Assembly: GCF_036365525.1 (NCBI RefSeq)
Contig: NC_090377.1
Location: forward strand, 103,368,265-103,432,264
Direction: 5' to 3'
Source: Heterodontus francisci
Taxonomy: Eukaryota
Length of the DNA: 64,000 bases
Numbering within the stretch: the stretch's first letter is position 1; each line of letters begins with the position of its first letter. This document shows positions 171 to 61,595 of the stretch, piece after piece. The translations under genes and the position numbers were made by a program. Under the pieces are notes generated by a model. That model ran no database searches, was not told the DNA's origin, and worked only from the letters and a program-made list of their open reading frames with translations.

Positions 171-214
171 GCCAAGAGGTATGCTTACTAAGGGAACCCA
201 GGTCTAGGAACAAC

Positions 215-1175
215 TAAAATAAAAGCAAAATACTGCAGATGCTGGAAATCTGGAATAAAAAGCAGAAAATGCTGGAAATACTCAGCAGGTCTGGCAGTAT
301 CTGTGGATTGAGAAGCAGAGCTAAAGTTTCAAGTCTGTAGCCTTTCATCAGAACTGGCAAAGGTTAGAAATGTAATTGGTTTTAAGCAAGTAATGCAGGG
401 GTGGGGGGGTGGGGTGGGGGTGAAGAGGACAAAAGGAGTTAGTGGACAGTCTATCCCCAGAGATGGAGACAGAGAACTCGAGGAAGGGAAGGGAAGGGAA
501 GTGTTGGAGATGGACCACGTTAAGGTGAGAGAAAGGTGGAAATTGGAAGCAAGGTTGATGACTTTGGATGTTCAATCTCTCTGCACCTCTATCCCCTTCC
601 AGGATGGTCTGAGAGCTCTCTGCTTCTTCCTTGAACAGAGGCCCAACAAGTCCCCATCCACCACCACTCTCCTCCGTCTGGCTGAACTTGTTCTCACATT
701 GAACAACCTTCCTTTCAACTCCACTCACTTCCTTCAAATAAAAGGTCTTGCTATGGTACCCACATGGGTCCAAGTTATGCCTGTCCTTTTGTGGGGTCTG
801 TCAAACATTCCTTGTTCCAGTCCTACTCAGGCCCCCTCCCGCAACTCTTTTTCCAGTACATTGATGACTGTATCGGTGTTGTTTCCTGCTCTCGCCCCGA
901 ACTGGAAAACTTAATCAACTTTGCTTCCAATTTTCACCCTTCTCCCACCTTTATACGGTCCATCTTCGACACTTCCCTTTCTCAACTTCTCTTTCTCCAT
1001 CTCTGGGGATAGTCTGTCTACTAATATTCATTATAAGCCCACCGACTCCCACAGCTACCTCGAATACACTTCCTCACACACTGCTTCCTGTAAGGACTCC
1101 ATTGCATTCTCCCAATTACTCCGTCTCCGATGCATCTGTTGTGATGATGCAACCTTCCACAACAGTGCTTCTGAT
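215..1175 (+). mobile_element. Penelope-like element fragment: inverted terminal repeat (215-~420) plus degraded reverse transcriptase
   Basis: Frameshifted PLE RT motifs in ORFs 393-914, 764-1012 and 921-1208 (LAELVLTLNN, GLAM/MGPSYAC, FFQYIDDCIG, HYKPTDSHSYLEY); terminal repeat shared with 28920, 30166, 32817. Confidence 0.8.
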
Positions 1176-9829: not shown

Positions 9830-12705
9830 GGTAGGTGATTGGTTGGTGGGTTTTAAGGGTTTTTTTTCCTCTCTTTGCTAGAGCAGTGGTTTAAATTAAG
9901 ACTGGAAAACTATAAAGTACTGCTCTAAATTTACAGCTTAGCCAGTTAAACTGATTAATAACATTTCAACTGGTGTAAGTATAACAGCAAGTGAATTAAT
10001 AAGGGTACTAGCAAAGAGCAGATCTAGAGACATTAATTAAAATTTATCCAAGATAGTAACTGTATTCTAAGAGAGGAAACAGACACTTTTTTAGATCATG
10101 AATGGGCAGCTGAGAGTGTTGCTTGCAATTCCTGCACCATGTGGGAACTTCAGGGCACTGCTTGGGGGGCACATGGAAGTGTCTCCAGCTACTTGAGCTT
10201 GAGCTGAGGAATTTCTGAGCTTGAAGGACAGCTGGAGTCACTGCAGAGCATCAGGGAGGAAGAGAGCTTCCTGGATCGTATGTTCCAGGAGATGGTTACA
10301 ACAGAGGCAGTGAGAGTTCAGGATAGTAGAGGAGAAGTGTAGTAGGAGGCAGGAGATGCAGGAGTTTTAGGGATGTCTGCCACTCTCAAACTGATACTCA
10401 GTAATAGAGACTGCTGGGAGTAATTTTGGAGGAATGCAGTCCAGATCATGGCTGCAATGGCAAGGGACTGCACAGGAGGGAACAGCAAAGAGTAGAAATG
10501 CAGTTGCTGTAGGAAGTTCCAAAGTTAGGGGGACAAACAGGCATTTTTGTAACCATCATCCTGAGTCCTGCATGGTGTGTTGCCTCCCTGTTGTCAATGT
10601 AAAGGAGATCACAGGGAAGGTGCAGAATATTCTGCAGAGGGAAAGGAGTGAGCCAGAAGTTGTGGTTCACGTTGGTGCCATGACACAGAAGGGCAGGCAT
10701 TGAGGCACTATGGTCAGATTTTCTGGAGCTAGGGAGGAAGTTAAATGTAGGACTTCAAAAGTAGTAATCAGAATCAAAGAATGTTTATGCCACAGAAAGA
10801 GGCCACTTGGCCCATTGTGTCTGTGCTGGCCGCAAAACGATCCACCTATTCTGATGAAAGGTCACTGACCCGAAACGTTAACTCTGCTTCTCTCTCCACA
10901 GATGCTGCCAGACCTGTTGAGTATTTCCAGCATTTTTTGTTTTTATTTCAGATTTCCAGCATCAGCAGCATTTTTCTTTTATTCCACCTATTCTAATCCC
11001 ACCTTTCAGCATTTGGTCCATAGCCCTGCAGATTAACAATTTCTGGATTACTCCCAGTGCTACTCACTGGCAAGTGTAGAAATAGGAAGATAGGGATGAT
11101 CAATGTGTGGATTGAGGCATGGGTGCAGGAGGGAGGGCTTCAGATTCTTTGGGGCGTTGAGACCAGTTCTGGGGCAGGAGACCTATTCAAAAGGGACAGG
11201 TTGTACCTTCCTTGTGGGGTGGTTCAATAGTGTGGTTGGGGAGGGTTTAAACAAAGTTGGCAGGGGGATGGGCACCAGTGTATAGAAGTAAAAAAGAGGA
11301 ATAAGGTGCACAAAGTGAGAGCATTGGATCGTGCTAGAGAAGGAAATAGTACCATATCAGAAAGGAGCTGACTAAGAAGGACTATGAGAAATACAAAGAC
11401 AGGTTTAGAATGCATGTATGTAAACGCACAATGTGTGGTGAATTAGGTTGGTCAGCTACAAGCACAAGTAGCCATATGGGAATATAATATAATGGCAATA
11501 ATGGGAATATGGCTTTAAAAATGTTGAGGACTGGGTATTTAATATTCAAGGATATAAAATGTTTAGAAAATATAAGGAAGGAAAAGAAGCGAGGTGGGGT
11601 GGCCGTACTGATTAGGGGTGACATTGTAGTGTTGGAAAGGGATGATGTCCTTGAGGGGGAAAAGACAAAATCCATTTGGTTGGAGTTGAGAAGCAAAAAG
11701 GGTATGATCACGCTACTGGGAATATTCTACAGACCTCCAAATTGTGAGAGAGAGATAGAGGAGCAAATCTGCAGGGAAATCTCAGAGATGTGCAAGAGCT
11801 ACAGACAGGTGATATTTGGAAACTTTAATTATCCAAATCTCAATTGGGATAATGTTAGAATAAAGGATAAGAAGGGGGAGGAATTTATCAAATGTGTTCA
11901 GGAGAACTTCCTTGACCAGTATGTTTCTGGTTCAACTAGGAAGGAGGCATTGCTGGATCTGGTGCTGGGGAATGAGGTGGGCCAAGTGTCTGTGGGAGAA
12001 CATTGGGGCAAGAGTGATCATCATATCATAAAGTTTAGATTAGTAATGGAATTAGTAATGGATTAGCAAGAAACAATCTAAAGTAGAACTTCTCAATTGG
12101 AAGTGGGCTAACTTCAATGGGATGAGAAGGGATCTAGCCAGGGTAAAATGAAACCAAAGATTGACAGGAAAATCTGTAATTGAAAAATGGATGATCTTTA
12201 AGGAGGAGATGTTTCAGCTATGGGATAGGTAAATTCCAATAAGAGGGAAAGACAGGGAAGCAAAGCCAGGGCTCCTTAGATGACAAGGGAGATACAGAAT
12301 ATGATGAACCAATAAAAGAGTGTGTATGATGCTTGTCAGGTGAATTCTTCAAGTGAGAACCAGGCCAAATACAATAAGTTGAGAGGGGAAGTGAAGAGGA
12401 AAATCAGACTAGCAAAGAGAGAATATGAGAATAGAATGGCAGTTAACATAAATACGAAGCCAAAAATCTTCTCCCGGCATGTAAGTAGTGAACAGGTAGT
12501 AAGAGGCGGATCCTATTAGGAGCAAAGAGGGCGAAATCTGCTTAGAAACACAGGGTGAGGCTAAAATACTTAATGAGTACTTTGTATCCTTGTTTACTAA
12601 GGAAGAGGATGCTGATAAAATATTGATTGAAGCAGAGATGGTAAAGGAAATAGATGAGGTGAAAATTGATAGGCAGGATGTACTGGAAAGGCTGGCTATG
12701 TTTAG
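9830..12705 (+). mobile_element. CR1 LINE 5' half: ORF1 (SGNH esterase-like) and ORF2 APE endonuclease, degraded
   Basis: VCCLP...EPEVVVHVG (ORF 10434-10703); GGGVAVLI, YRPPN, GNFNYP, LDLVL, SDHHII (ORF 11509-12066). Confidence 0.85.
10853..10982 (+). mobile_element. Short PLE-terminus insertion carrying a hammerhead motif, 12-bp TSD, nested in a minus-strand CR1 3' tail (10769-11036)
   Basis: TCCACCTATTCT at 10841-10852 and 10983-10994; core CTGATGA-A-AGGTCACTGACCC-GAAACGTT. Confidence 0.8.
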
Positions 12706-14117
12706 TGTGGATATTTCAGAAGGTCAGGAAGCTAGGAAAAGATGGTGGGGTAGCTCTGTTAATTAATGCTAATATTAGGACAAGAGTGAGCGATGACCTT
12801 GGTTCTAAAGATCAAGATGTGGAATCAGTTTGGATAGGGATAAGAAATAGCAGAGGTAAGAAGTCACTTTTGGGACCAGTTTATAGGCCCCCTAACAGTA
12901 ACTACACTGTAGGATGGGGTATACAGGAAAACTAATGGGGGCTTGTAAGAAAGGTACGGCAATAATCATGAGTAATTTTAATCTCAATATAGATTGGACG
13001 AATTGGATCAGCAAAGGTAGCCTGGAAGATGAGTTCATCGAGTGTTTTCTGGAATATTTCTTAGAGCAGCATGTTCTAGAGACAACCAGAGAGGAGGCTA
13101 TTCTAGACCTGGTAGTGTGCAATGAGGCAGGAATACTAAAGACCTTTTCGAAAAGGAGCCTCTTGGTGGCAGTGATCATAACATGATTGAATTTTGCATT
13201 CAGTTTGAGGGAGAGATGAATGGGTCTAAGACGAGTGTTTTAAATTTAAATAAGGGAAATCATAAGGGTATGAAGACTAAGCTGGCTAAAGTAAACTGGG
13301 AAATTAAGTTAAGATTTTTTTTTAGATTAGATTAGAGATACAGCACTGAAACAGGCCCTTTGGCCCACCAAGTCTGTGCCGAACATCAACCACCCATTTA
13401 TACTAATCCTACACTAATCCCATATTCCTACCAAACATCCCCACCTGTCCCTATATTTCCCTACCACCTACCTATACTAGTGACAATTTATAATGGCCAA
13501 TTTACCTATCAACCTGCAAGTCTTTTGGCAGGAAACCCACGCAGACACAGGGAGAACTTGCAAACTCCACACAGGCAGTACCCGGAATTGAACCCGGGTC
13601 CCTGGAGCTGTGAGGCTGCAGTGCTAACCACTGCGCCACTGTGCCGCCCTAGGGTAGGTCAGTAGAGATGCAGTGGCAGTCATTTAAGGAGCTATTTCAT
13701 AACACTCAGCAAAGATATATTCCAGTGAGAAAGAAAGATGCTAGGAGAAGGAGGCACCATCCATGGCTAACTAAGGAAATTAAAGAAAGTATCAAATTAA
13801 AAGAAAAAAGTGTACAATTCTGCAAAGATTAGTGATAGGTCAGAAGATTGGACAGAATTTAAAAACAAGCAAAGAATGACTTAAAAAGAAGACGGGAGAA
13901 ATTAGAGTATGCGAGAAAGCTAGCTAGAAATATAAACAACAAATAGTAAGAGTTTCTGCAAGTATTTAAAAAGGAAAAGAGTGATAAAAGTAGAGAGTGA
14001 GTCAGGGGAATTAATAATGGCAAAAAAGGAAATGACGGAAGCATTGAACAGCTATATTCTGTCTTCACCGTAGAAGACACAAATAACATCCCAGAAATAG
14101 TTGTAAATCAAGAGGTT
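12706..14117 (+). mobile_element. Second CR1 ORF2 fragment (APE endonuclease to linker), interrupted by a SINE
   Basis: GGVALLI, VYRPPNS, ILDLVVCNE, SDHN motifs (ORFs 12666-12935, 12914-13186). Confidence 0.8.
13316..13649 (-). mobile_element. tRNA-derived V-domain SINE (HE1-like)
   Basis: GGGCGGCACAGTGGCGCAGTGG head with A/B-box-like motifs, GTGTGGAGTTTGCA domain, CR1-like tail with short tandem repeat; near-identical to 14806, 20008, 44626, 61265. Confidence 0.85.
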
Positions 14118-14805: not shown

Positions 14806-15152
14806 CACAGTGGCGCAGTGGTTAGCACCGCAGCCTCACAGCTCCAGCGACCCGGGTTCAATTCTGGGTACTGCCTGTGTGGAGTTTGCAAGTTCTCCCT
14901 GTGACTGCGTGGGTTTCCTCTGGGTGCTCCGGTTTCCTCCCACATGCCAAAGACTTGCTAGTTGATAGGTTAATTGGCCATTATAAATTGCCCCTAGTAT
15001 AGGTAGGTGGTAGGGAAATAGAGGGACAGGTGGGGATGTGGTAGGAATATGGAATTAGTGTAGGATTAGTATAAATGGGTGGTTGATGGTCGGCACAGAC
15101 TCGGTGGGCCGAAGGGCCTGTTTCAGTGCTGTATCTCTAAACTAAAACTAAA
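14806..15152 (+). mobile_element. tRNA-derived V-domain SINE (HE1-like)
   Basis: Same family as 13316; (CTAAA)n tail. Confidence 0.85.
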
Positions 15153-18563: not shown

Positions 18564-18984
18564 CTGTAATAGAAGTAAATTACACATTTGTGTGCAGGTA
18601 CAAATATATCTATACAGTGCTCAACAAAATTATTGTAAAAGGGTTGTTAGGCATGCAACATCATCAGGGAATCCATTGACTGTTTTGATGAAAATTGTCC
18701 ATACGAAACATTAACTTGCCTTTTCTGTTTCCGGATGTTGACAGACCGATTGTGCATTTCCAGCATTTTGTGTTGGTAAACTGATATTCAGCAATCACAA
18801 TTTTACTATTTCATCAATATTATCAAGCATTCAATCAATGTTATTAACTGTTAAAATCTATGAGCTGGAAGATTTTGGATTGAAGTCTCACTCCAGACAG
18901 TCCTGGTGAATAGAAATGGAGAATTCAGTCTCTGAATACTGATTTGCATTCAGTGGGATACTTGCATTTGATGGGAACATAGGC

Positions 18985-20007: not shown

Positions 20008-20376
20008 GTTTTTTAGTTTTAGTTTTTAGTTTTAGTGATACAGCACTGAAACAGGCCCTTCGGCCCACCGAGTCTGTGCCGATCATCAACCACCCATTTA
20101 TACTAATCCTACACTAATTCCATATTTCTACCACATCCCCACCTGTCCCTATATTTCCCTACCACCTACCTATACTAGGGGCAATTTATAATGGCCAATT
20201 AACCTACCAACCAGCAGGTCTTTGGCATGTGGGAGGAAACCAGAGCACCCGGAGGAAACCCACGCAGATACAGGGAGAACTTGCAAACTCCACACAGGTA
20301 GTAAGTACCCAGACTTGAACCCGGGTCGCTGGAGCTGTGAGGCTGCGGTGCTAACCACTGCGTCACTGTGCCGCCC
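20008..20376 (-). mobile_element. V-domain SINE in gene 2 intron 2, TSD CAAATTA
   Basis: Family sequence as above; CAAATTA at 20001-20007 and 20377-20383. Confidence 0.85.
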
Positions 20377-20540
20377 CAAATTAAAATTAGGATTTATGAT
20401 TAAGGAAATCCATTAAAGTGGGAATGATAAACTATTGGAATTTTTGATTATTAAATAAATAATAGATAAACAGCCATTACAAATATAAATCAATGAACAA
20501 GTTCATTTATGCCTATAAGGACCGTGAATTCATTACTCAC

Positions 20541-28915: not shown

Positions 28916-28919
28916 CATG

Positions 28920-29730
28920 AAATAAAAACAGAAAGTGCTGGCAATACTCAACAGGTCAGGCAGCATCTGTGGCGAGAGAAACAGAGTTAACATTTCAGGT
29001 CTGTGCCCTTTCATCAGAACTGGAAAAGGTTAGAAAAGACTTAGGTTTTAAGCAAGTGGAGAGGGTGGGGGGGGGGGTTGCTGCTGTTGGTGGGGAAGAG
29101 AACAAAAGGGAAGGTGTGTGATAGGGCAGAGGACAGGAGAGTTTAAATAACAAAGCTGTCCTGGTACAAAAGCAAAGAGCGTGTTAATGCTTGTGGTGAA
29201 AGACAAAGCATTAGTCCAGGGACAGTGTTAATAGCAGAATAATGAGTAGCTCTGTCTACATGAAAAACAGGCACATAGTTAAAAAATGAAATAATATAAA
29301 AATATAAAAAAGGCCAATCATGTTCTGAAGTTACTGAACTCAGTGTTCAGTCTGCAAGGCTGTAGAGTACTTAATCGAAAGATCAGGCGCAGCTCCCCGA
29401 GCTTGCATTGATGTTCACTGGAACACTGCAGTAGGCGAAAGACAGAAATGTTGGCATGAGAGCAGGGATGTGTCTTGAAATGGCAAGCGACTAGAAGCTT
29501 GGGGTCATGCTTTCGGACTGCGTGGAGGTGTTCCGCAAGCGGTTATCCAATCTGCATATGGTCTCCCCAATGTAGAGGCGACTGCATTGTGAGCAGCGAA
29601 TATAGTATACTAAATTGAAGGAAGTACAAGTAAATCGCTGCTTCACCTGGAAGGAGTGTATGGGGCCTTGGATGGTGAGAAGAGAGGAGGTAAGAGGGCA
29701 AGTATTACAGCTCCAGCGATTGCATGGGAT
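28920..29730 (-). mobile_element. Penelope-like element 3' part: GIY-YIG endonuclease and terminal repeat with hammerhead motif
   Basis: FTCTSFNLVYYIRCSQCSRLYIGETICRL (ORF 29491-29829). Confidence 0.85.
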
Positions 29731-30165
29731 GCTCATGATATTGGGCCCCCTGCTGATGCATGCAGTCAATGAATGGTGTTGATACTGCTGGCTGCACATA
29801 ACAATCACTATAATGCACTGGCAGCACAAAGTTGGTGTGCTGCCTACATTACACCACGTGGGGGCAGGTTATCACACAAAAGCTTGTTGAGAAAACAATT
29901 CACAGCGATATAAAGTATAAATGTGCATTGTTTGTATGTACCAGAGAAAAAAGGACACTGTACTCACTCTGCAATCCTTCTCACAGACATCTCTGATAAA
30001 AGACTCAACAAGTAGTAGAGACATAATTTTGTAGATGCTGGTGAAACCAATCAAAAAATATCTTTTGCTCTAATCAAGATGATTTGTTACAGACATGCAC
30101 AGGAGTGGAATCAATTACATGAATACCATCACTTTCAGGGCACTGACAATCAATCAGCTGGAATG

Positions 30166-30271
30166 TAATAAAAACAAGAAATGCTGGAAATACTCAGCAG
30201 GTCTGGCAGCATCTGTGGAGAGAGAGCAGAGTTAACGTTTCAGGTCAGCGACCTTTCATCAGAACTTCATC
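30166..30271 (-). mobile_element. Short hammerhead-bearing PLE-terminus insertion, 11-bp TSD
   Basis: CAGCTGGAATG at 30155-30165 and 30272-30282; empty site at 45307-45317. Confidence 0.85.
30230..30266 (-). ncRNA. Minimal type I hammerhead ribozyme motif (best-preserved copy)
   Basis: AGTT-CTGATGA-A-AGGTC-GCT-GACCT-GAAA-CGTT-AACT: core CUGAUGA/GAAA, stem II AGGUC/GACCU, stem I AGUU/AACU, palindromic AACGUU stem III. Confidence 0.7.
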
Positions 30272-30840
30272 CAGCTGGAATGGAAGTTTGAAATAGTTTA
30301 CATCTTAGTCACTTCACTTCTACCACATGAATTTGTATCATCTTCAACGTACTGAAGCAATCTGTGATCATTAAAATATATTCAGGAACCGAAAGATGGC
30401 TGTTGAAAAATAATGTTATATTGGTTGCAGTTATGTGTGGTGCTCCGAGGGTGAGGTTAGAGCACATTGTTAGAGCAGAAGAATGAAAGCTTTCTCCTGC
30501 ATTTGATGTTTGTTGTATTGGCTCATGAATGCTTGACATTTATAGAGACCCAAATGAGCTCCATTCTTTAACACTGATACAGTTCATCTCAATCACACAA
30601 AATAGTACCCCCCTTAAAACACTTGAGTGCCATTTATTATACTGAGGCAATTAGAATAAAGAATATCAGTCATGTCCATTTGATCAGAAAATATCTGGTC
30701 AATCACTATTATTTACAAACATTCACATGACATTATTATCACTGATTTTCTGTATTAATCATTCATTCACAAATTGTGGGCTTCACTGGCAAGGCCAGCA
30801 CTTATTGCCCATCCGTAATTGCCCTTGAGAATGTGGTGGT

Positions 30841-31088: not shown

Positions 31089-32816
31089 GTGTTGAGCTGC
31101 CTTCTTGAACCACTGCAGTCCTTGTGGTGTAGGTACTCCCATATTGCAGTTAGGGAGAAAGTTCAAGGATTTTAGCTCAGCGACAATGAAGGAACAGTGA
31201 TGTTTTTCTAAGTCAATATGGCATGTGACTTGGAGGGGAACTTTAGTGAGTTGCTGCAATGCATCTTGTAGATGGTACACACTGCTGCCACTGTGCTCAG
31301 GTGATGGAGGGAGTAAATGTTTAAGGTGGTACATGAGGTGCCAATCAAGTGGGCGCTTTGCCCCGGATGGTGTCGAGCTTCCTGAGTGTTGTTGGCGCTG
31401 CACCCATTCAAGCAAGTGAAGAGTATTCCATCACACTCCTGATTTGTGGCATGTAGATGATGCACAGGCTTTAGGAATTCAGGAGGTGAGTTAGTTGCCA
31501 CTGAATTCCCAGCCTCTGACCATACTATTTACAGGGCAGGTGCAGTTAAATGTCTGGTCAAAGGAAACCTCCAGCATGTTGATGGTGGGGGATTCAGTGA
31601 CGGTAACGCTGTTGAACATCAAGGGGAGATAGTTAGATTGTCTCTTGTTTGACATGTTCCTTGCCTGTCACTTGTGTGCTGCAAATGTTGCTTGCCACTT
31701 CTCAGCCCAATCCTGAATGTTTTCAAGTGATTGCTGCATGCGGGCACAGACTGCTTCATTATCTAAGGAGTTATGAATGGGAGCAAACACTGTGCAATCA
31801 TCTATGAAGATCCCCACTTCTCTCTTTATGATAGAGGAAAAGCCATTGATGAAGCTGCTGAAAATGGTTGGGCCTAGGACACTGCCATGACAAACTCCTA
31901 CAGTAATATCCTGGGGTACAGATCATTGGCCTCCAACAATGACAGCCATCTTCCTTTGTAATAGGTCTGTCTCCAGCCAATGGAAAGTTTTCCCTCTGAT
32001 TCCCATTAATTTCAATTTTACCAGGGCTCCTTAATGTCACACTCAGTCAAGGATTGCCTTGATGTCAAGGGCAATCAGTCACCTCTGAAATTCAGCTCTT
32101 TTGTCCATGTTTGTACCAAGGCTATAGTGAGGTCAGCAGCCTAGTTCGAGAGTTTCTCGAGGAACCCAAACTGACCAGGTTACACCTGTGTAAGTGCGAC
32201 TTAATAGCACTGTCAATGACATCTTCCATCATTTTACCATTGATTGAAAGTAGACTGATAGGCAGTAATTGGCCAGATTGGGTTTGTCCTGCATTTTTTT
32301 CACAGAACATACCTGGGCAATTTTTCAGTGTCAGTAGATCCCTATTTTGTAGCTGTACTGAAATGTACTGCAGCTAGAGGCACAGCTAGTTCTGGAACTC
32401 AAGTCGTCAGCCCTACAGTCGGGATGTTATCGGGGCACAAAGCCTTTGCAGTATCCAATGCGCTCAGCCGTTTCTTCTTGTCACGTGGAGTGAATCGAAT
32501 CAACTGAAAACTCGCATCTGTGATGCTGGGGACTTCAGGAGGAGGCCAAGATGGATCATCCACTCAGCACTTCTGGCTGAAGATGGTTGCAAATGCTTCA
32601 GTTTCATCTTTTGCTGGAATTCCTCATTCTTCAGGATGCGGATGTTCATACAACCTCCCCATTCTGTTATTCGTATAACTGTTCACCACCGTTCATGACT
32701 GTATGTGGCAGACTGCAGAGTTTGAGCTAATCCATTGACTGTGGGATCACTTAGCTCTGTCTATAGCATACTACTTCTGCTGTTGAACATGTTTGTAGTC
32801 CTGAGTAGTAGCTTCA

Positions 32817-33837
32817 ATAAAATAAAAGCAAAATACTGCAGATGCTGGAAATCTGAAATAAAAACAAAAAGTGCTGGAAAAACTCAGCAGGTCTAGCAGC
32901 ATCTGTGGAGAGAAGCAGAGTTAACGTTTCAGGTCTGTGACCCTTCATCAGAACTGGCAAAGGTTAGAAATGTAATAGGTTTTAAACAAGTAAAATGGGG
33001 AAGGAGGGGGGGTGGTGGGGGGGGTGGCGATGGTGGTGGAGCATCCAAGGCCCCAGACACTCCTTTCAGGTCAAGCAGTGATTTACTTGTACTTCTTTCA
33101 ATTTAGTATACTGTATTAGCTGCTCACAATGCAGACTTCTCTACACTGGGGAGACCAAATGCAGATTAGGTGACCGCTTTGTGGAACATCTTGCTCAATC
33201 TGAAAACAGGACTCTGAGCTTCCAGTTGCTTGCCATTTCAATACACCCCCCGCCCCCCACTGCTGTCATGCCCACATCTCTGTCCAGGGCCTGCTGCAGG
33301 ATTCCAGTGAACATCAACGCAAGCTCGAGGAACAACACCTTATTTTCCGACAAGGCACACTACAGCCTGCCGGACTGAACATTGAGTTCAATAATCTCAG
33401 AGCATGACTGGCCCTTTTTATTCTAATTTTATTTTATTTTGCTCCATCTTTTTTTTACCATGTGCCTGCCTATTATTTTTTTCATGTTTGTCCTTTTGGC
33501 TAGGGCTGCTCATTATTCTGTCGTTAACACTCCCTCTGCATGAATGCTTTGTCTTTCATCACACCATTAGCACACTCTCTTTGCCTTTGTCCCATGAGTT
33601 TGTCAGTTAATCTCTCTGGTTCTCTGTCCTATCACACATCTTCCCTTTTGTTCTCTTCCTCTAACACCCACCCCCCACCACCACCCACAACCTCCACTTT
33701 ACTTGTTTAAAACCTATTGCATTTCTAATCTTTACCAGTTCTGATGAAAAGCCACTGACCTGAAAGGTTAACTCTGCTTCTCTCTCCACAGATGCTGCCA
33801 GACCTGCTGAGTTTTTCCAGCACTTTCTGTTGTAATT
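32817..33837 (+). mobile_element. Penelope-like element with inverted terminal repeats and GIY-YIG remnant; 9-bp TSD
   Basis: GTAGCTTCA at 32808-32816 and 33838-33846; QGPRHSFQVKQ*FTCTSFNLVYCISCSQC...YTGETKCRLGDRFVEH; hammerhead motifs at 32919-32955 (-) and 33737-33773 (+). Confidence 0.85.
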
Positions 33838-44097: not shown

Positions 44098-44625
44098 TGC
44101 TACATTCTGTGCAGAAACACAATTTAATTCCTTAATCTTATCACTTTGAACCTGACCAACCTGCTTTTGCTTGTTTGCCACCCTCACTTTGATTTTAGTG
44201 GAAAGTTCAGGCAGCTTTGTCTCTATTTCCACTTTCCAAATATTGGTGTACAATGTGAAGAGTAAAAGTGCCAGCTTTGACCCCTGGGGTGTCCTCAATT
44301 ATTTCTCAATACTCTGACATAGCTCCATTTGCACACTCTCCCTCTCTCTCTCTCACTCCCCCGCCGCCCCACCTCGCTCACTATCTCTTTTGATGCAGTC
44401 ATTTGCCAATCAACTTTAATAGCTGCTCACCAACCAACTATATGGCACCATATCAAAGTGTAGATAAACAATATTCATAAAGTTACTTTCATCCACAAGC
44501 TCCAATACCACCTTAAGGAATTCGAACTGGCATCCTTTATATTAAGACATGGTAATTTGTCTTAATGACTTTGTGCTCCTTGGTGTTAAATACTGGCCTT
44601 GGTTAAGAGAGTCTCTTAACATGTG

Positions 44626-44966
44626 GGGCGGCACAGTGGCGCAGTGGTTAGCACCGCAGCCTCACAGCTCCAGCGACCCGGGTTCAATTCTGGGTACTGC
44701 CTGTGTGGAGTTTGCAAGTTCTCCCTGTGTCTACGTGGGTTTCCTCCAGGTTCTCCGGTTTCCTCCCCCATGCCAAAGACTTGCAGGTTGATAGGTGAAT
44801 TGGCCATTATAAATTGCCCCTAGTATAGGTAGGTGGTAGGGAAATATAGGGACAGGTGGGGATGTGGTAGGAATATGGGATTAGTGTAGGATTAGTATAA
44901 ATGGGTGGTTGATGGTCGGCACAGACTCGGTGGGCCGAAGGGCCTGTTTCAGTGCTGTATCTCTAA
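44626..44966 (+). mobile_element. V-domain SINE (HE1-like), full length
   Basis: Nearly identical to 14806-15152. Confidence 0.9.
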
Positions 44967-46069
44967 ACATATGCCTCACAACAGACGTCAGACTCAGTAG
45001 CCTATAATTCCTAGCACCTCCCTTTCTCCCACTTTTAAAGTTGATGCTGTCTCTACCTTTGGTACAAATCCTGATACTAAAGACAACCCCCCAAAACATG
45101 ACCAATTTTCTTGGCCTTTTGCTTAAGTACCCTAGTGCTCTGGTTCTGGGGGTAGAAGCCTATTACTGTGCCTTGAACAGTTCAGTTGCTCACCTTTCAG
45201 TCGCAATCTATAATCCTTGCTTTGATCACTGTATTTTCACTGTGCGAGTACTGGTATTTTGAGTTTTCATCTGGGTTCTAATTGGTGATACACATACACA
45301 GTTAATCAGCTAGAATGGAAGTTTGAAATGGTTCACAAACATCTTCGGCACTTCACTTCTACTGCATGAGTTTGAATCCAGTTCAACGTACTGAAGCAAT
45401 CTGCAATCATTTGAACTGATCTAGAATCCAAAAAATAGCTTTTGGAAAAATAATGTCAGATTGGTTGCAGTTGTGTGTGACGCTCTGAGAGTGAGGTTAG
45501 AGCAGATTGATAGGGCAGAAGAATGAGAGCTTTCTCCTGCATTTGACTTTTGTTGCATTGGTTCATGAATGTTTGACATTCATAGAGACCGAAACAAGCT
45601 CCATCCTATAACACTGATAAATTTCACAGCAATCACACAAAATAAACCCTCCTTAAAACAGTTGAGTGCTATTTATTATTAAACGGCATTTTATACTCTC
45701 GAGATTGGATCAGAGAATATCAGCTATGTCCATTTGATCAGAAAATACCTGATAAATCACTCTTATTTACAAAGATTCATATATCCTTTTAGTATTACTG
45801 ATTGGTACTGGTTCTAAAGAAAGAAGAACTTGCATTTATATCGCGCCTCTGACAATCTCAGGATATCTCAAAGCACTTCACATATTGTAAGTAGGAACCA
45901 GTTGTATAGACTAATAGCAGGAATAGATATTTTTAAGCTTGCATTCCAGCAAAGCTGCTTGAGATATTTTTGTCATGTGGTGTGTTTCTAAATGTGTTTC
46001 TATAATGAACCTCATTCTCTTGAAGTATTCTCTGTGGAGCTGCCTCCACCATTTCCCTCCATTCCCCTC

Positions 46070-61175: not shown

Positions 61176-61264
61176 GTTTTTCAGGTATGTCCTGTCCACA
61201 ACAAGCAGGACAAATCCAATCCGGATAATTACAATCAGCAAAGTGATGGAAGGTGTCATCAATG

Positions 61265-61595
61265 GGGCGGCACAGTGGTACAGTGGTTAGCACTGCAGCC
61301 TCACAGCTCCTGGGACCCGGGTTCGATTCTGGGTACTGCCTGTGCGGAGTTTGCAAGTTCTCCCTGTGACCGCGTGGGTTTTCGCCGGGTGCTCTGGTTT
61401 CCTCCCACCTCCAAAGACTTGCAGGTGATAGGTAAATTGGCTGTTGTAAATTGCCCTGAGTGTAGGTAGGTGGTAGGGAATATGGGATTACTGTAGGGTT
61501 AGTATAAATGGGTGGTTGTTGGTCGGCACAGACTCGGTGGGCCGAAGGGCCTGTTTCAGTGCTCTATCTCTAAATAAATAAATAAAAATCAAATA
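61265..61595 (+). mobile_element. V-domain SINE (HE1-like)
   Basis: Family sequence; (TAAA)n tail. Confidence 0.85.

What the first reader, a model, noticed from the sequence alone, without database searches (positions are those of the whole stretch)
30155..30282. ~105-nt ribozyme-plus-tail mini-element with TSD and an in-window empty site
Seen: the insert 30166-30271 is only the hammerhead and a short 3' tail, flanked by CAGCTGGAATG twice. The paralogous segment has a single CAGCTAGAATG (45307-45317) running straight into GAAGTTTGAAAT, so this is a true insertion made after the segmental duplication. Its 5' boundary lies within a few nt of hammerhead stem I, as in the 10853 copy and apparently the 18682 copy. 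Inference: a recurrent boundary suggests a defined non-autonomous, retrozyme-like or PLE-dependent mini-retroelement rather than random 5' truncation. The inserts keep the whole core upstream of the predicted cleavage site, implying an uncleaved, multimeric or circular template.
Basis: partly seen in the sequence, partly recalled or inferred. Interest (0 to 1): 0.7.

Follow-up and report, generated by a model that had tools for sequence, protein, structure and literature searches.

The report
Run-off stubs of a Penelope retrotransposon
This 106-base insertion is one of very many short copies of the front end of a Penelope-type jumping gene, not a self-copying element of its own, and the copies pile up at one starting base just before a tiny ribozyme motif, likely because copying runs off the start of the parent RNA, which would help explain how these poorly understood elements build their repeated and mirror-image ends.

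Summary
The insertion is real: 106 bases, a perfect 11-bp target duplication and a minimal hammerhead. The in-window 'empty site' at 45307 matches on one flank only; a true empty paralog lies about 200 kb away (L032). The stub is the 5' leader of an endonuclease-bearing Penelope-like element (PLE), and in the parent this leader runs straight into the ORF. In 1.16 Mb of unselected genome, 37 of 81 5' ends fall in a 17-nt window at stem I (10-25 times background). Stubs form no lineage of their own, and spliced templates are rejected. In five of 17 ORF-to-leader junctions the leader starts exactly at the A of an initiator-like CCAGTT, three with an extra G. Best reading (about 0.65): reverse transcription starts at one of two internal sites and runs off a capped RNA start, a 'strong-stop'-like by-product. 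Inverted pairs nearly always join one short-end and one long-end arm (29 of 32). Two private junctions recur within a single locus only, which suggests copying round one RNA. The scan noted the same stubs before, in this and other genomes. No RNA start was mapped here.

The parts
30166..30271 (-). The stub: PLE leader from -4 to about +96 (0 = C of CTGATGA at 30262), plus 5 extra bases at its 5' end; short-end type, without the ~35-nt tail
30272..30282 (.). Target-site duplication, copy at the element's 5' side
   Evidence: single copy in empty paralog L032
30155..30165 (.). Target-site duplication, copy at the element's 3' side
30267..30271 (-). Five extra bases (GATGA), inferred partial re-copy of the element's own first bases after reaching the template end
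   Evidence: 58 exact genome-wide matches of this context; 16 of 30 fetched extend to CTGATGA|AGTTCTGATGA (counted by eye)
30230..30266 (-). Minimal type I hammerhead: stem I 4 bp, CTGATGA, unpaired A, stem II 5 bp, GAAA, palindromic ACGT, predicted cut after 30234; the A at 30266 is the inferred RNA start
   Evidence: sequence; pair counts; no Rfam match; architecture as in PMC4209133
30166..30229 (-). Leader between the ribozyme and the first (short) 3' end, the inferred first internal start of reverse transcription
   Evidence: 3' ends bimodal near +97 and +133
45307..45317 (.). Paralogous single site, homologous to the filled site on the right flank only
10849..10983 (+). Second stub, -2 to +132 (long-end type with tail), duplication of about 12 bp
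18673..18774 (+). Old, diverged related copy; 5' boundary not determinable
28918..29729 (-). 5'-truncated PLE copy: GIY-YIG end of ORF, 3' UTR, hammerhead, short end
32814..33837 (.). Head-to-head pair: minus arm from about -49/-65 to +138 (long end) and plus arm from about -730 to +96 (short end)
213..437 (-). PLE copy from about -55/-80 to +137, next to ORF fragments at 439-1175

Best explanation
The insert is a short copy of the 5' leader of an endonuclease-bearing Penelope-like retrotransposon, likely made when the element's reverse transcriptase started about 100 bases inside an uncut, likely capped transcript and ran off its first base. Shown: the leader (hammerhead, then two 3' end sites near +97 and +133) runs directly into the RT-GIY-YIG ORF and is repeated behind the 3' UTR; 5' ends pile up at -4 to 0; stubs carry 9-18 bp duplications and share alleles with long copies. 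Inferred: the endonuclease cuts the target, and reverse transcription primes at the two internal sites, probably one per strand. Where the RNA begins at the A of CCAGTT, only 100-140 nt lie upstream of the priming site, so the cDNA ends there. That free end then joins the target (solo stub, as here), joins the opposite arm (head-to-head pair), slips back a few bases (the extra GATGA here), or jumps to the RNA's 3' end and goes round again (permuted tandems). Stubs are dead ends. The hammerhead marks the place but is not inferred to make the end.
For: 5' end hazard 37 ends/783 nt at +8..-8, against 15/3516 downstream and 2/1155 upstream (p 1e-16 and 7e-13). 51 of 89 distinct young copies end at 0..-7, 2 between -8 and about -15, and 36 run far upstream. 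9,246 exact genome-wide matches have a non-template base right before AGTT (includes mutated long copies). The tail-to-ORF junction has 2,172 exact matches. Of 17 ORF-to-leader junctions, 5 land at this site (p 3e-6 against uniform); all 5 begin at AGTT and 3 carry an extra G, the mark read as a copied cap in L1 and SVA (PMC4859970, passages). In 3 of those 5 loci both passes end at the site (L321, L350, L365). No stub lineage. Short and long arms pair in 29 of 32 inverted pairs (p 1e-6). In vitro, a Poseidon PLE starts internally at two sites, extends both strands, needs ORF sequence beyond the tail and uses uncut RNA (PMC11167929, parts 1-2 read).
Against: No RNA start was mapped: the runs are assembled contigs of guessed RNA and show no start. 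G before AGTT is only weakly enriched: 33 of the first 100 listed (p 0.16), 25 of 64 in the youngest subfamily (p 0.04, chosen after seeing the list, hand count), 3 of 5 junctions (p 0.07), 4 of 19 in the young edge set. Many templates extend upstream: 36 of 89 young copies, and in ORF-bearing copies only 7 of 28 that reach the site stop there (against 37 of 61; p 0.003). In Drosophila Penelope the start lies 46 nt before a 75-nt intron whose end is at helix I (PMC2377424 passages, PMC4209133), so a start at helix I itself would differ. CCAGTT as an initiator is a recalled consensus. The in vitro model is Poseidon clade; this parent looks Neptune-like.
Confidence: 0.65

Rival explanations
1. 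The boundary is a roadblock, not an RNA end: the enzyme copies longer nuclear RNA and stalls at a 3' splice site bound by splicing factors (branch-like CTAAY, pyrimidines, CAG|TT lie right there) or at a fold-back of the short CAG-TT-CTG palindrome.
For: The acceptor-like signal and a donor-like GTCAGT about 110 nt upstream are conserved among 73 long copies. The Drosophila intron ends at the same spot (PMC4209133). Many copies read through. Exact-match lengths peak at both -2 (12) and -4 (11) of 51.
Against: RNA-to-RNA junctions start exactly at -4 with an extra G in 3 of 5. The cut-off upstream of about -6 is sharp. No spliced joint among the joints listed (one search hid 68 joints).
Confidence: 0.15
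2. The RNA does end at -4, but by processing (a nuclease or small-RNA-guided cut) rather than by transcription start.
For: Explains the sharp end and the junctions without needing a promoter that differs from Drosophila Penelope.
Against: Extra G in 3 of 5 junctions and the initiator-like context; no known cut motif at -4; the ribozyme cut site is 32 nt away.
Confidence: 0.1
3. The stubs are a self-propagating SINE- or retrozyme-like family copied from their own 100-130 nt (circular or multimeric) RNA.
For: Very high copy number (about 21 solo stubs per Mb), own duplications, and signs of copying round one RNA elsewhere in the family.
Against: No separate lineage. No tandem arrays of the stub seen among 90 unselected pieces. 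A circle made by ribozyme cutting would be joined at +28/+29; none of 17 junctions lies there (nearest +33). Stubs lack the ORF stretch that the in vitro PLE needed (PMC11167929). The monomer's predicted fold buries the core.
Confidence: 0.07
4. Stubs are copies of spliced RNA, the boundary being the exon junction.
For: Conserved donor- and acceptor-like signals.
Against: The predicted junction has only 7 matches genome-wide, 5 of them explained by inverted arms (judged by eye). Bases between duplication and core are short and unrelated in 20 of 20 stubs with a duplication.
Confidence: 0.03

Closest known systems
5'-truncated, solo-pLTR and inverted-pLTR insertions of EN+ Penelope-like elements with a 30-40 bp tail (PMC8557442, PMC3846280; passages)
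   Same: RT plus C-terminal GIY-YIG ORF, hammerhead in the pLTR, optional tail, head-to-head inverted copies, duplications of about 9-18 bp
   Different: The passages read describe truncation as frequent but report no sharp 5' end at stem I, no short-plus-long rule for the two arms and no repeated private junctions
Poseidon PAc of Anolis carolinensis, internal initiation in vitro (PMC11167929; parts 1-2 of 4 read)
   Same: Two internal start sites bracketing the tail; both strands extended; uncut RNA is the template; hammerhead at the pLTR-ORF junction
   Different: That text does not map the RNA 5' end or describe run-off stubs; the parent here has a Neptune-like CxxxxCxxC linker
Solo minimal hammerheads of metazoan PLEs (PMC4209133; parts 1-2 of 4 read)
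   Same: Minimal type I motif, mostly single and dispersed, ascribed to truncated PLEs; circular templates proposed
   Different: No boundary statistics; circles proposed there arise from ribozyme cutting, whereas junctions here lie elsewhere
Non-LTR retrozymes (bioRxiv 10.64898/2026.07.22.740005; parts 1-3 of 5 read)
   Same: PLE pLTR-derived, non-coding, hammerhead-bearing
   Different: Defined there as tandem repeats with at least two hammerhead units and own families; these stubs are solo or inverted and have no lineage of their own
Minus-strand strong-stop DNA of LTR retroelements (recalled)
   Same: Works like it: internal priming near the RNA 5' end, run-off, then transfer to the 3' end
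   Different: Here primed by cut target DNA, not tRNA, and the short product is itself integrated

Membership tests
EN+ Penelope-like element (parent) | Single ORF with RT and C-terminal GIY-YIG endonuclease | tested here: met
   L197 translation shows DKG, YIDD and a C-terminal YCIRC..LLYIGET..R GIY-YIG-type stretch (motifs recalled); Pfam RVT_1 only E 0.001, below cut-off, and no Pfam hit for the EN part
EN+ Penelope-like element (parent) | Partial tandems forming pLTRs, inverted 5'-truncated copies, 30-40 bp tail | tested here: met
   Tandems of about 3.3 kb (L313/L314), inverted pairs, 3' ends at about +97 and +133
Neptune clade | [quoted passage not shown] | tested here: met
   CxxxxCxxC before the EN; feature named in PMC8557442, shared with Nematis
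Neptune clade | Placement in an RT tree | not tested
   No reference PLE proteins were at hand
Minimal type I hammerhead of PLEs | Core boxes, stem I 4-5 bp, stem II, unpaired base, palindromic 15.2-16.2 | tested here: met
   83.8% of 179 cells paired against 12-46% for slid controls; no Rfam match at E up to 1
Minimal type I hammerhead of PLEs | Covariation beyond column make-up | tested here: inconclusive
   3 of 9 pairs with two-sided change; shuffles reach the values in 29-430 of 500
Minimal type I hammerhead of PLEs | Self-cleavage | not testable with these tools
   Monomer fold z 0.22, core mispaired; weak pile-up of 7 ends at +37..+46 in ORF-bearing copies, not at the cut site
Non-LTR retrozyme | Head-to-tail tandem units, each with a hammerhead | tested here: not met
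   This copy is solo; none seen among 90 unselected pieces (by eye)
Non-LTR retrozyme | Own lineage apart from the autonomous element | tested here: not met
   37 stubs against 22 long copies: statistic 0.47, null 0.52, p 0.79; about 95 nt only, so power is limited
Non-LTR retrozyme | Circular RNA of unit length | not testable with these tools
   Only contigs were available
SINE | Internal Pol III promoter and own master copies | not tested
   No tRNA or A/B-box scan run; all of the stub but 5 nt is PLE leader and it has no lineage

The most novel reading that the evidence does not exclude
PLEs transpose by a target-primed version of the retroviral strong-stop and strand-transfer cycle. A dimer primes both cut strands at two fixed internal sites (one short, one long) near the capped start of the RNA, runs off, and either integrates the stub or jumps to the RNA's 3' end and rolls round the same molecule. 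This one rule would yield pLTRs, tails, tandems and inverted ends without ribozyme cutting, and the roughly 10^5 stubs would be its fossil intermediates.
Probability: 0.35. Interest if true: 0.8.

Novelty: new variant of a known kind. Interest (0 to 1): 0.48.

Why it matters
How PLEs, the closest mobile relatives of telomerase, make their pseudo-LTRs, tandems, tails and inverted ends is described as undefined in PMC8557442. The stub itself is an ordinary by-product and no new element. But its family gives base-level predictions that the existing in vitro system (PMC11167929) can test: an RNA start at -4, one short and one long arm per event, and end-to-end jumping on one RNA. Roughly 10^5 such stubs (extrapolated from 24 in 1.16 Mb) also matter for repeat annotation, where they could be misfiled as SINEs or retrozymes.

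Tried and rejected
Rfam scan of the window: no match. In-window empty site at 45307: left flank not homologous. 'TGAAG is an upstream exon': rejected, it extends as a repeat of the element's own first bases. Spliced leader from the conserved donor: 7 matches, 5 from inverted arms. RNA runs: contigs of guessed RNA; loose ends at -2 to -4 in three runs (two organisms) repeat the boundary but may be genomic copies inside transcribed introns, so they show no start; no GT..AG joint among those listed; runs with small shares were not used. Cap G test: weak. Peak at the ribozyme cut site: none in unselected copies (hazard 0.004-0.005); the +37..+46 pile-up in ORF-bearing copies lies in a CT-rich stretch and may be an alignment effect. 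Folding of the stub: no better than shuffles. Literature: 8 searches found no paper reporting this boundary in sharks or a run-off model; the library lacks most subscription journals and Repbase. Supplements were not opened; Fig. S2 of PMC11167929 (genomic coverage of the PAc leader) may show a similar 5' edge.

Full report
Numbering: 0 is the C of CTGATGA in element orientation (window 30262, minus strand). The genome holds 6.0 Gb in 2,306 contigs. The repeat resembles ones I recall from sharks; that label was not tested.

1. The observation. The insert 30166-30271 is flanked by two identical 11-mers, the only two in the window. It reads as five extra bases, then AGTT, a minimal hammerhead, and leader to about +96. 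The 45307 site shares the right flank (79% over 498 nt) but not the left (score 18, random median 20, 95th percentile 27). A search with the flank gave five matches, all on contig C7. One, L032, aligns on both sides (82% left, 92% right) with one 11-mer: a true empty site. The window holds seven copies of the repeat: two clear stubs (-4 and -2), one old diverged copy, and four copies that run 49 to over 700 nt upstream.

2. What it is part of. Upstream of the long copies lie a UTR of about 380 nt and the end of an ORF. Long loci L196-L199 encode RT-type and GIY-YIG-type sequence with a CxxxxCxxC linker (Pfam RVT_1 only at E 0.001). PMC8557442 (passages) names a linker Zn-finger-like motif for the Neptune and Nematis clades. 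Downstream, the leader runs straight into the ORF; that junction has 2,172 exact matches. So hammerhead plus tail is the element's 5' leader, repeated behind the 3' UTR.

3. Is the boundary real? I took 116 stretches of 10 kb at round coordinates on 34 large contigs. They gave 90 pieces, about 73 insertions or 63 per Mb. Nine pieces were dropped for a 3' end below +85 or clipped at an edge; one duplicated pair (L212) is counted twice. Of 81, 37 have their 5' end in +8..-8. The hazard is 0.047 per nt there and 0.001-0.005 in the seven other bins (p 1e-16 and 7e-13 against the two neighbouring stretches). It holds for solo copies (24 of 51) and inverted arms (13 of 30). A second set, the first 91 of 4,064 exact core matches (89 distinct), gave 51 ends at 0..-7, 2 just beyond, and 36 long copies; this set requires an intact core. 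Duplications of 9 bp or more were found in 9 of 24 unselected stubs, 2 of 14 internally truncated and 1 of 11 long copies, against 5 of 300 shuffled flank pairs. They were found in 20 of 32 young solo stubs (wider search window, so not matched to that null). 3' ends are bimodal near +97 and +133, matching the two internal start sites and tail of PAc (PMC11167929, parts 1-2 read).

4. Own family or by-product? Over 0..+95, 37 stubs and 22 long copies are intermixed (0.47 against null 0.52, p 0.79; mean distances 0.143, 0.153 and 0.147; no column associated at p < 0.02). Rare alleles are shared across the two classes. The focal stub scores 88 of 92 against two short copies and 86 against long copies. 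No tandem stub arrays were seen. The retrozyme definition in the 2026 preprint (parts 1-3 read) needs tandem units. The membership claim fails; dependence on a PLE holds.

5. What makes the end? It is not the ribozyme cut, predicted after +28: unselected copies show no peak there, and the monomer folds with its core mispaired. It is not a spliced exon. A donor-like and an acceptor-like signal are conserved in 73 long copies, but the predicted junction has 7 matches, 5 of them inverted arms. The extra GATGA occurs in 58 exact matches and in 16 of 30 fetched extends to a direct repeat of the element's first bases, as expected from slippage at a template end. Among 50 ORF-start loci (one tandem twin dropped), 17 have a piece of ORF joined directly to a second leader. 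Five of these joins land at the boundary (p 3e-6); all five begin at AGTT and three carry an extra G where neither side has one. Untemplated G is read as a copied cap in L1 and SVA (PMC4859970, two passages). Against this: G enrichment is weak overall (33 of 100, p 0.16; 25 of 64 in the youngest subfamily, p 0.04, post hoc). Only 7 of 28 ORF-bearing copies that reach the site stop there. Drosophila Penelope starts about 120 nt upstream of helix I (PMC2377424 passages; PMC4209133 parts 1-2). RNA contigs show loose ends at -2 to -4 but cannot show a start.

6. Two further regularities. In 29 of 32 classifiable inverted pairs (4 of 36 dropped) one arm has the short end and the other the long end (p 1e-6). 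In 4 of 13 junction-bearing loci examined the same junction occurs again in the locus. The two I searched genome-wide occur only there: three times in L331 and twice in L328. This fits copying round one circular or end-jumped RNA; local DNA duplication after insertion is not excluded. These junctions are not at the ribozyme cut site.

7. Mechanism. Shown: insertion, duplication, boundary, two 3' ends, shared lineage, junction positions. Inferred: internal priming on both cut strands, run-off at a likely capped start at -4, then joining to the target, to the other arm, or to the RNA's 3' end. Long copies would come from RNAs that start upstream or from transfer to the downstream repeat. Odds: run-off from a transcription start 0.65, roadblock 0.15, processed end 0.10, own family 0.07, spliced 0.03.

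8. Novelty. Solo hammerheads of truncated PLEs, tails and inverted pLTRs are published (PMC4209133; PMC3846280 passages; PMC8557442). Eight searches found no report of this sharp boundary or of a run-off model; other papers listed were seen as listings only, and supplements were not opened. Earlier notes of this scan describe the same stubs in this and other genomes (seen after I had written my reading); they are not independent support. Verdict: a new variant of a known kind, ordinary as an element and useful as a record of mechanism. Interest 0.48.

Noticed in passing
L331 (G000:C1:67248746-67251272) and L328 (G000:C1:63198912-63199188): A private ORF-to-UTR junction occurs three times (one inverted) in L331 and twice, 254 nt apart, in L328, and nowhere else in the genome: a sign of copying round one RNA molecule.
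   Followed up: partly
inverted pairs in L038-L296; window 32814-33837: Head-to-head pairs nearly always have one arm ending near +97 and the other near +133 (29 of 32), suggesting one priming site per strand.
   Followed up: yes
L306-L335, L348-L367: Seven of 49 ORF-bearing copies begin at +37..+46, just downstream of the predicted ribozyme cut; a hint of cut templates or an effect of the CT-rich stretch.
   Followed up: partly
long copies, about -113 to -3 (e.g. L255, L266; window 33600-33739): Conserved donor-like GTCAGT and branch/acceptor-like CTAAY...YAG would define an intron of about 110 nt ending at stem I, as in Drosophila Penelope; at most 2 possibly spliced genomic copies (L336, L339).
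   Followed up: partly
window 30272-30750 and 45307-45803; L032, L034: Low-copy local duplication: four paralogous segments within about 210 kb on contig C7, 79-92% identical, falling into two left-flank types; gene content not examined.
   Followed up: no
L199 (G000:C1:204228000-204236000): Very young inverted pair with arms of about 2.1 and 2.3 kb, 99.8% identical to each other.
   Followed up: no
G000:C1:104038120-104044733; L313/L314: Head-to-tail arrays of whole elements with a period of about 3.3 kb.
   Followed up: no
L316:1416-1629 in runs X1, X2, X3, X5: One ORF-to-leader back-junction appears in contigs of two organisms, so some permuted copies are old and shared.
   Followed up: no
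window 13332-13649, 14806-15152, 20018-20381, 44621-44968, 61263-61593: Five copies of another repeat of about 340 bp, 76-97% identical; not identified.
   Followed up: no
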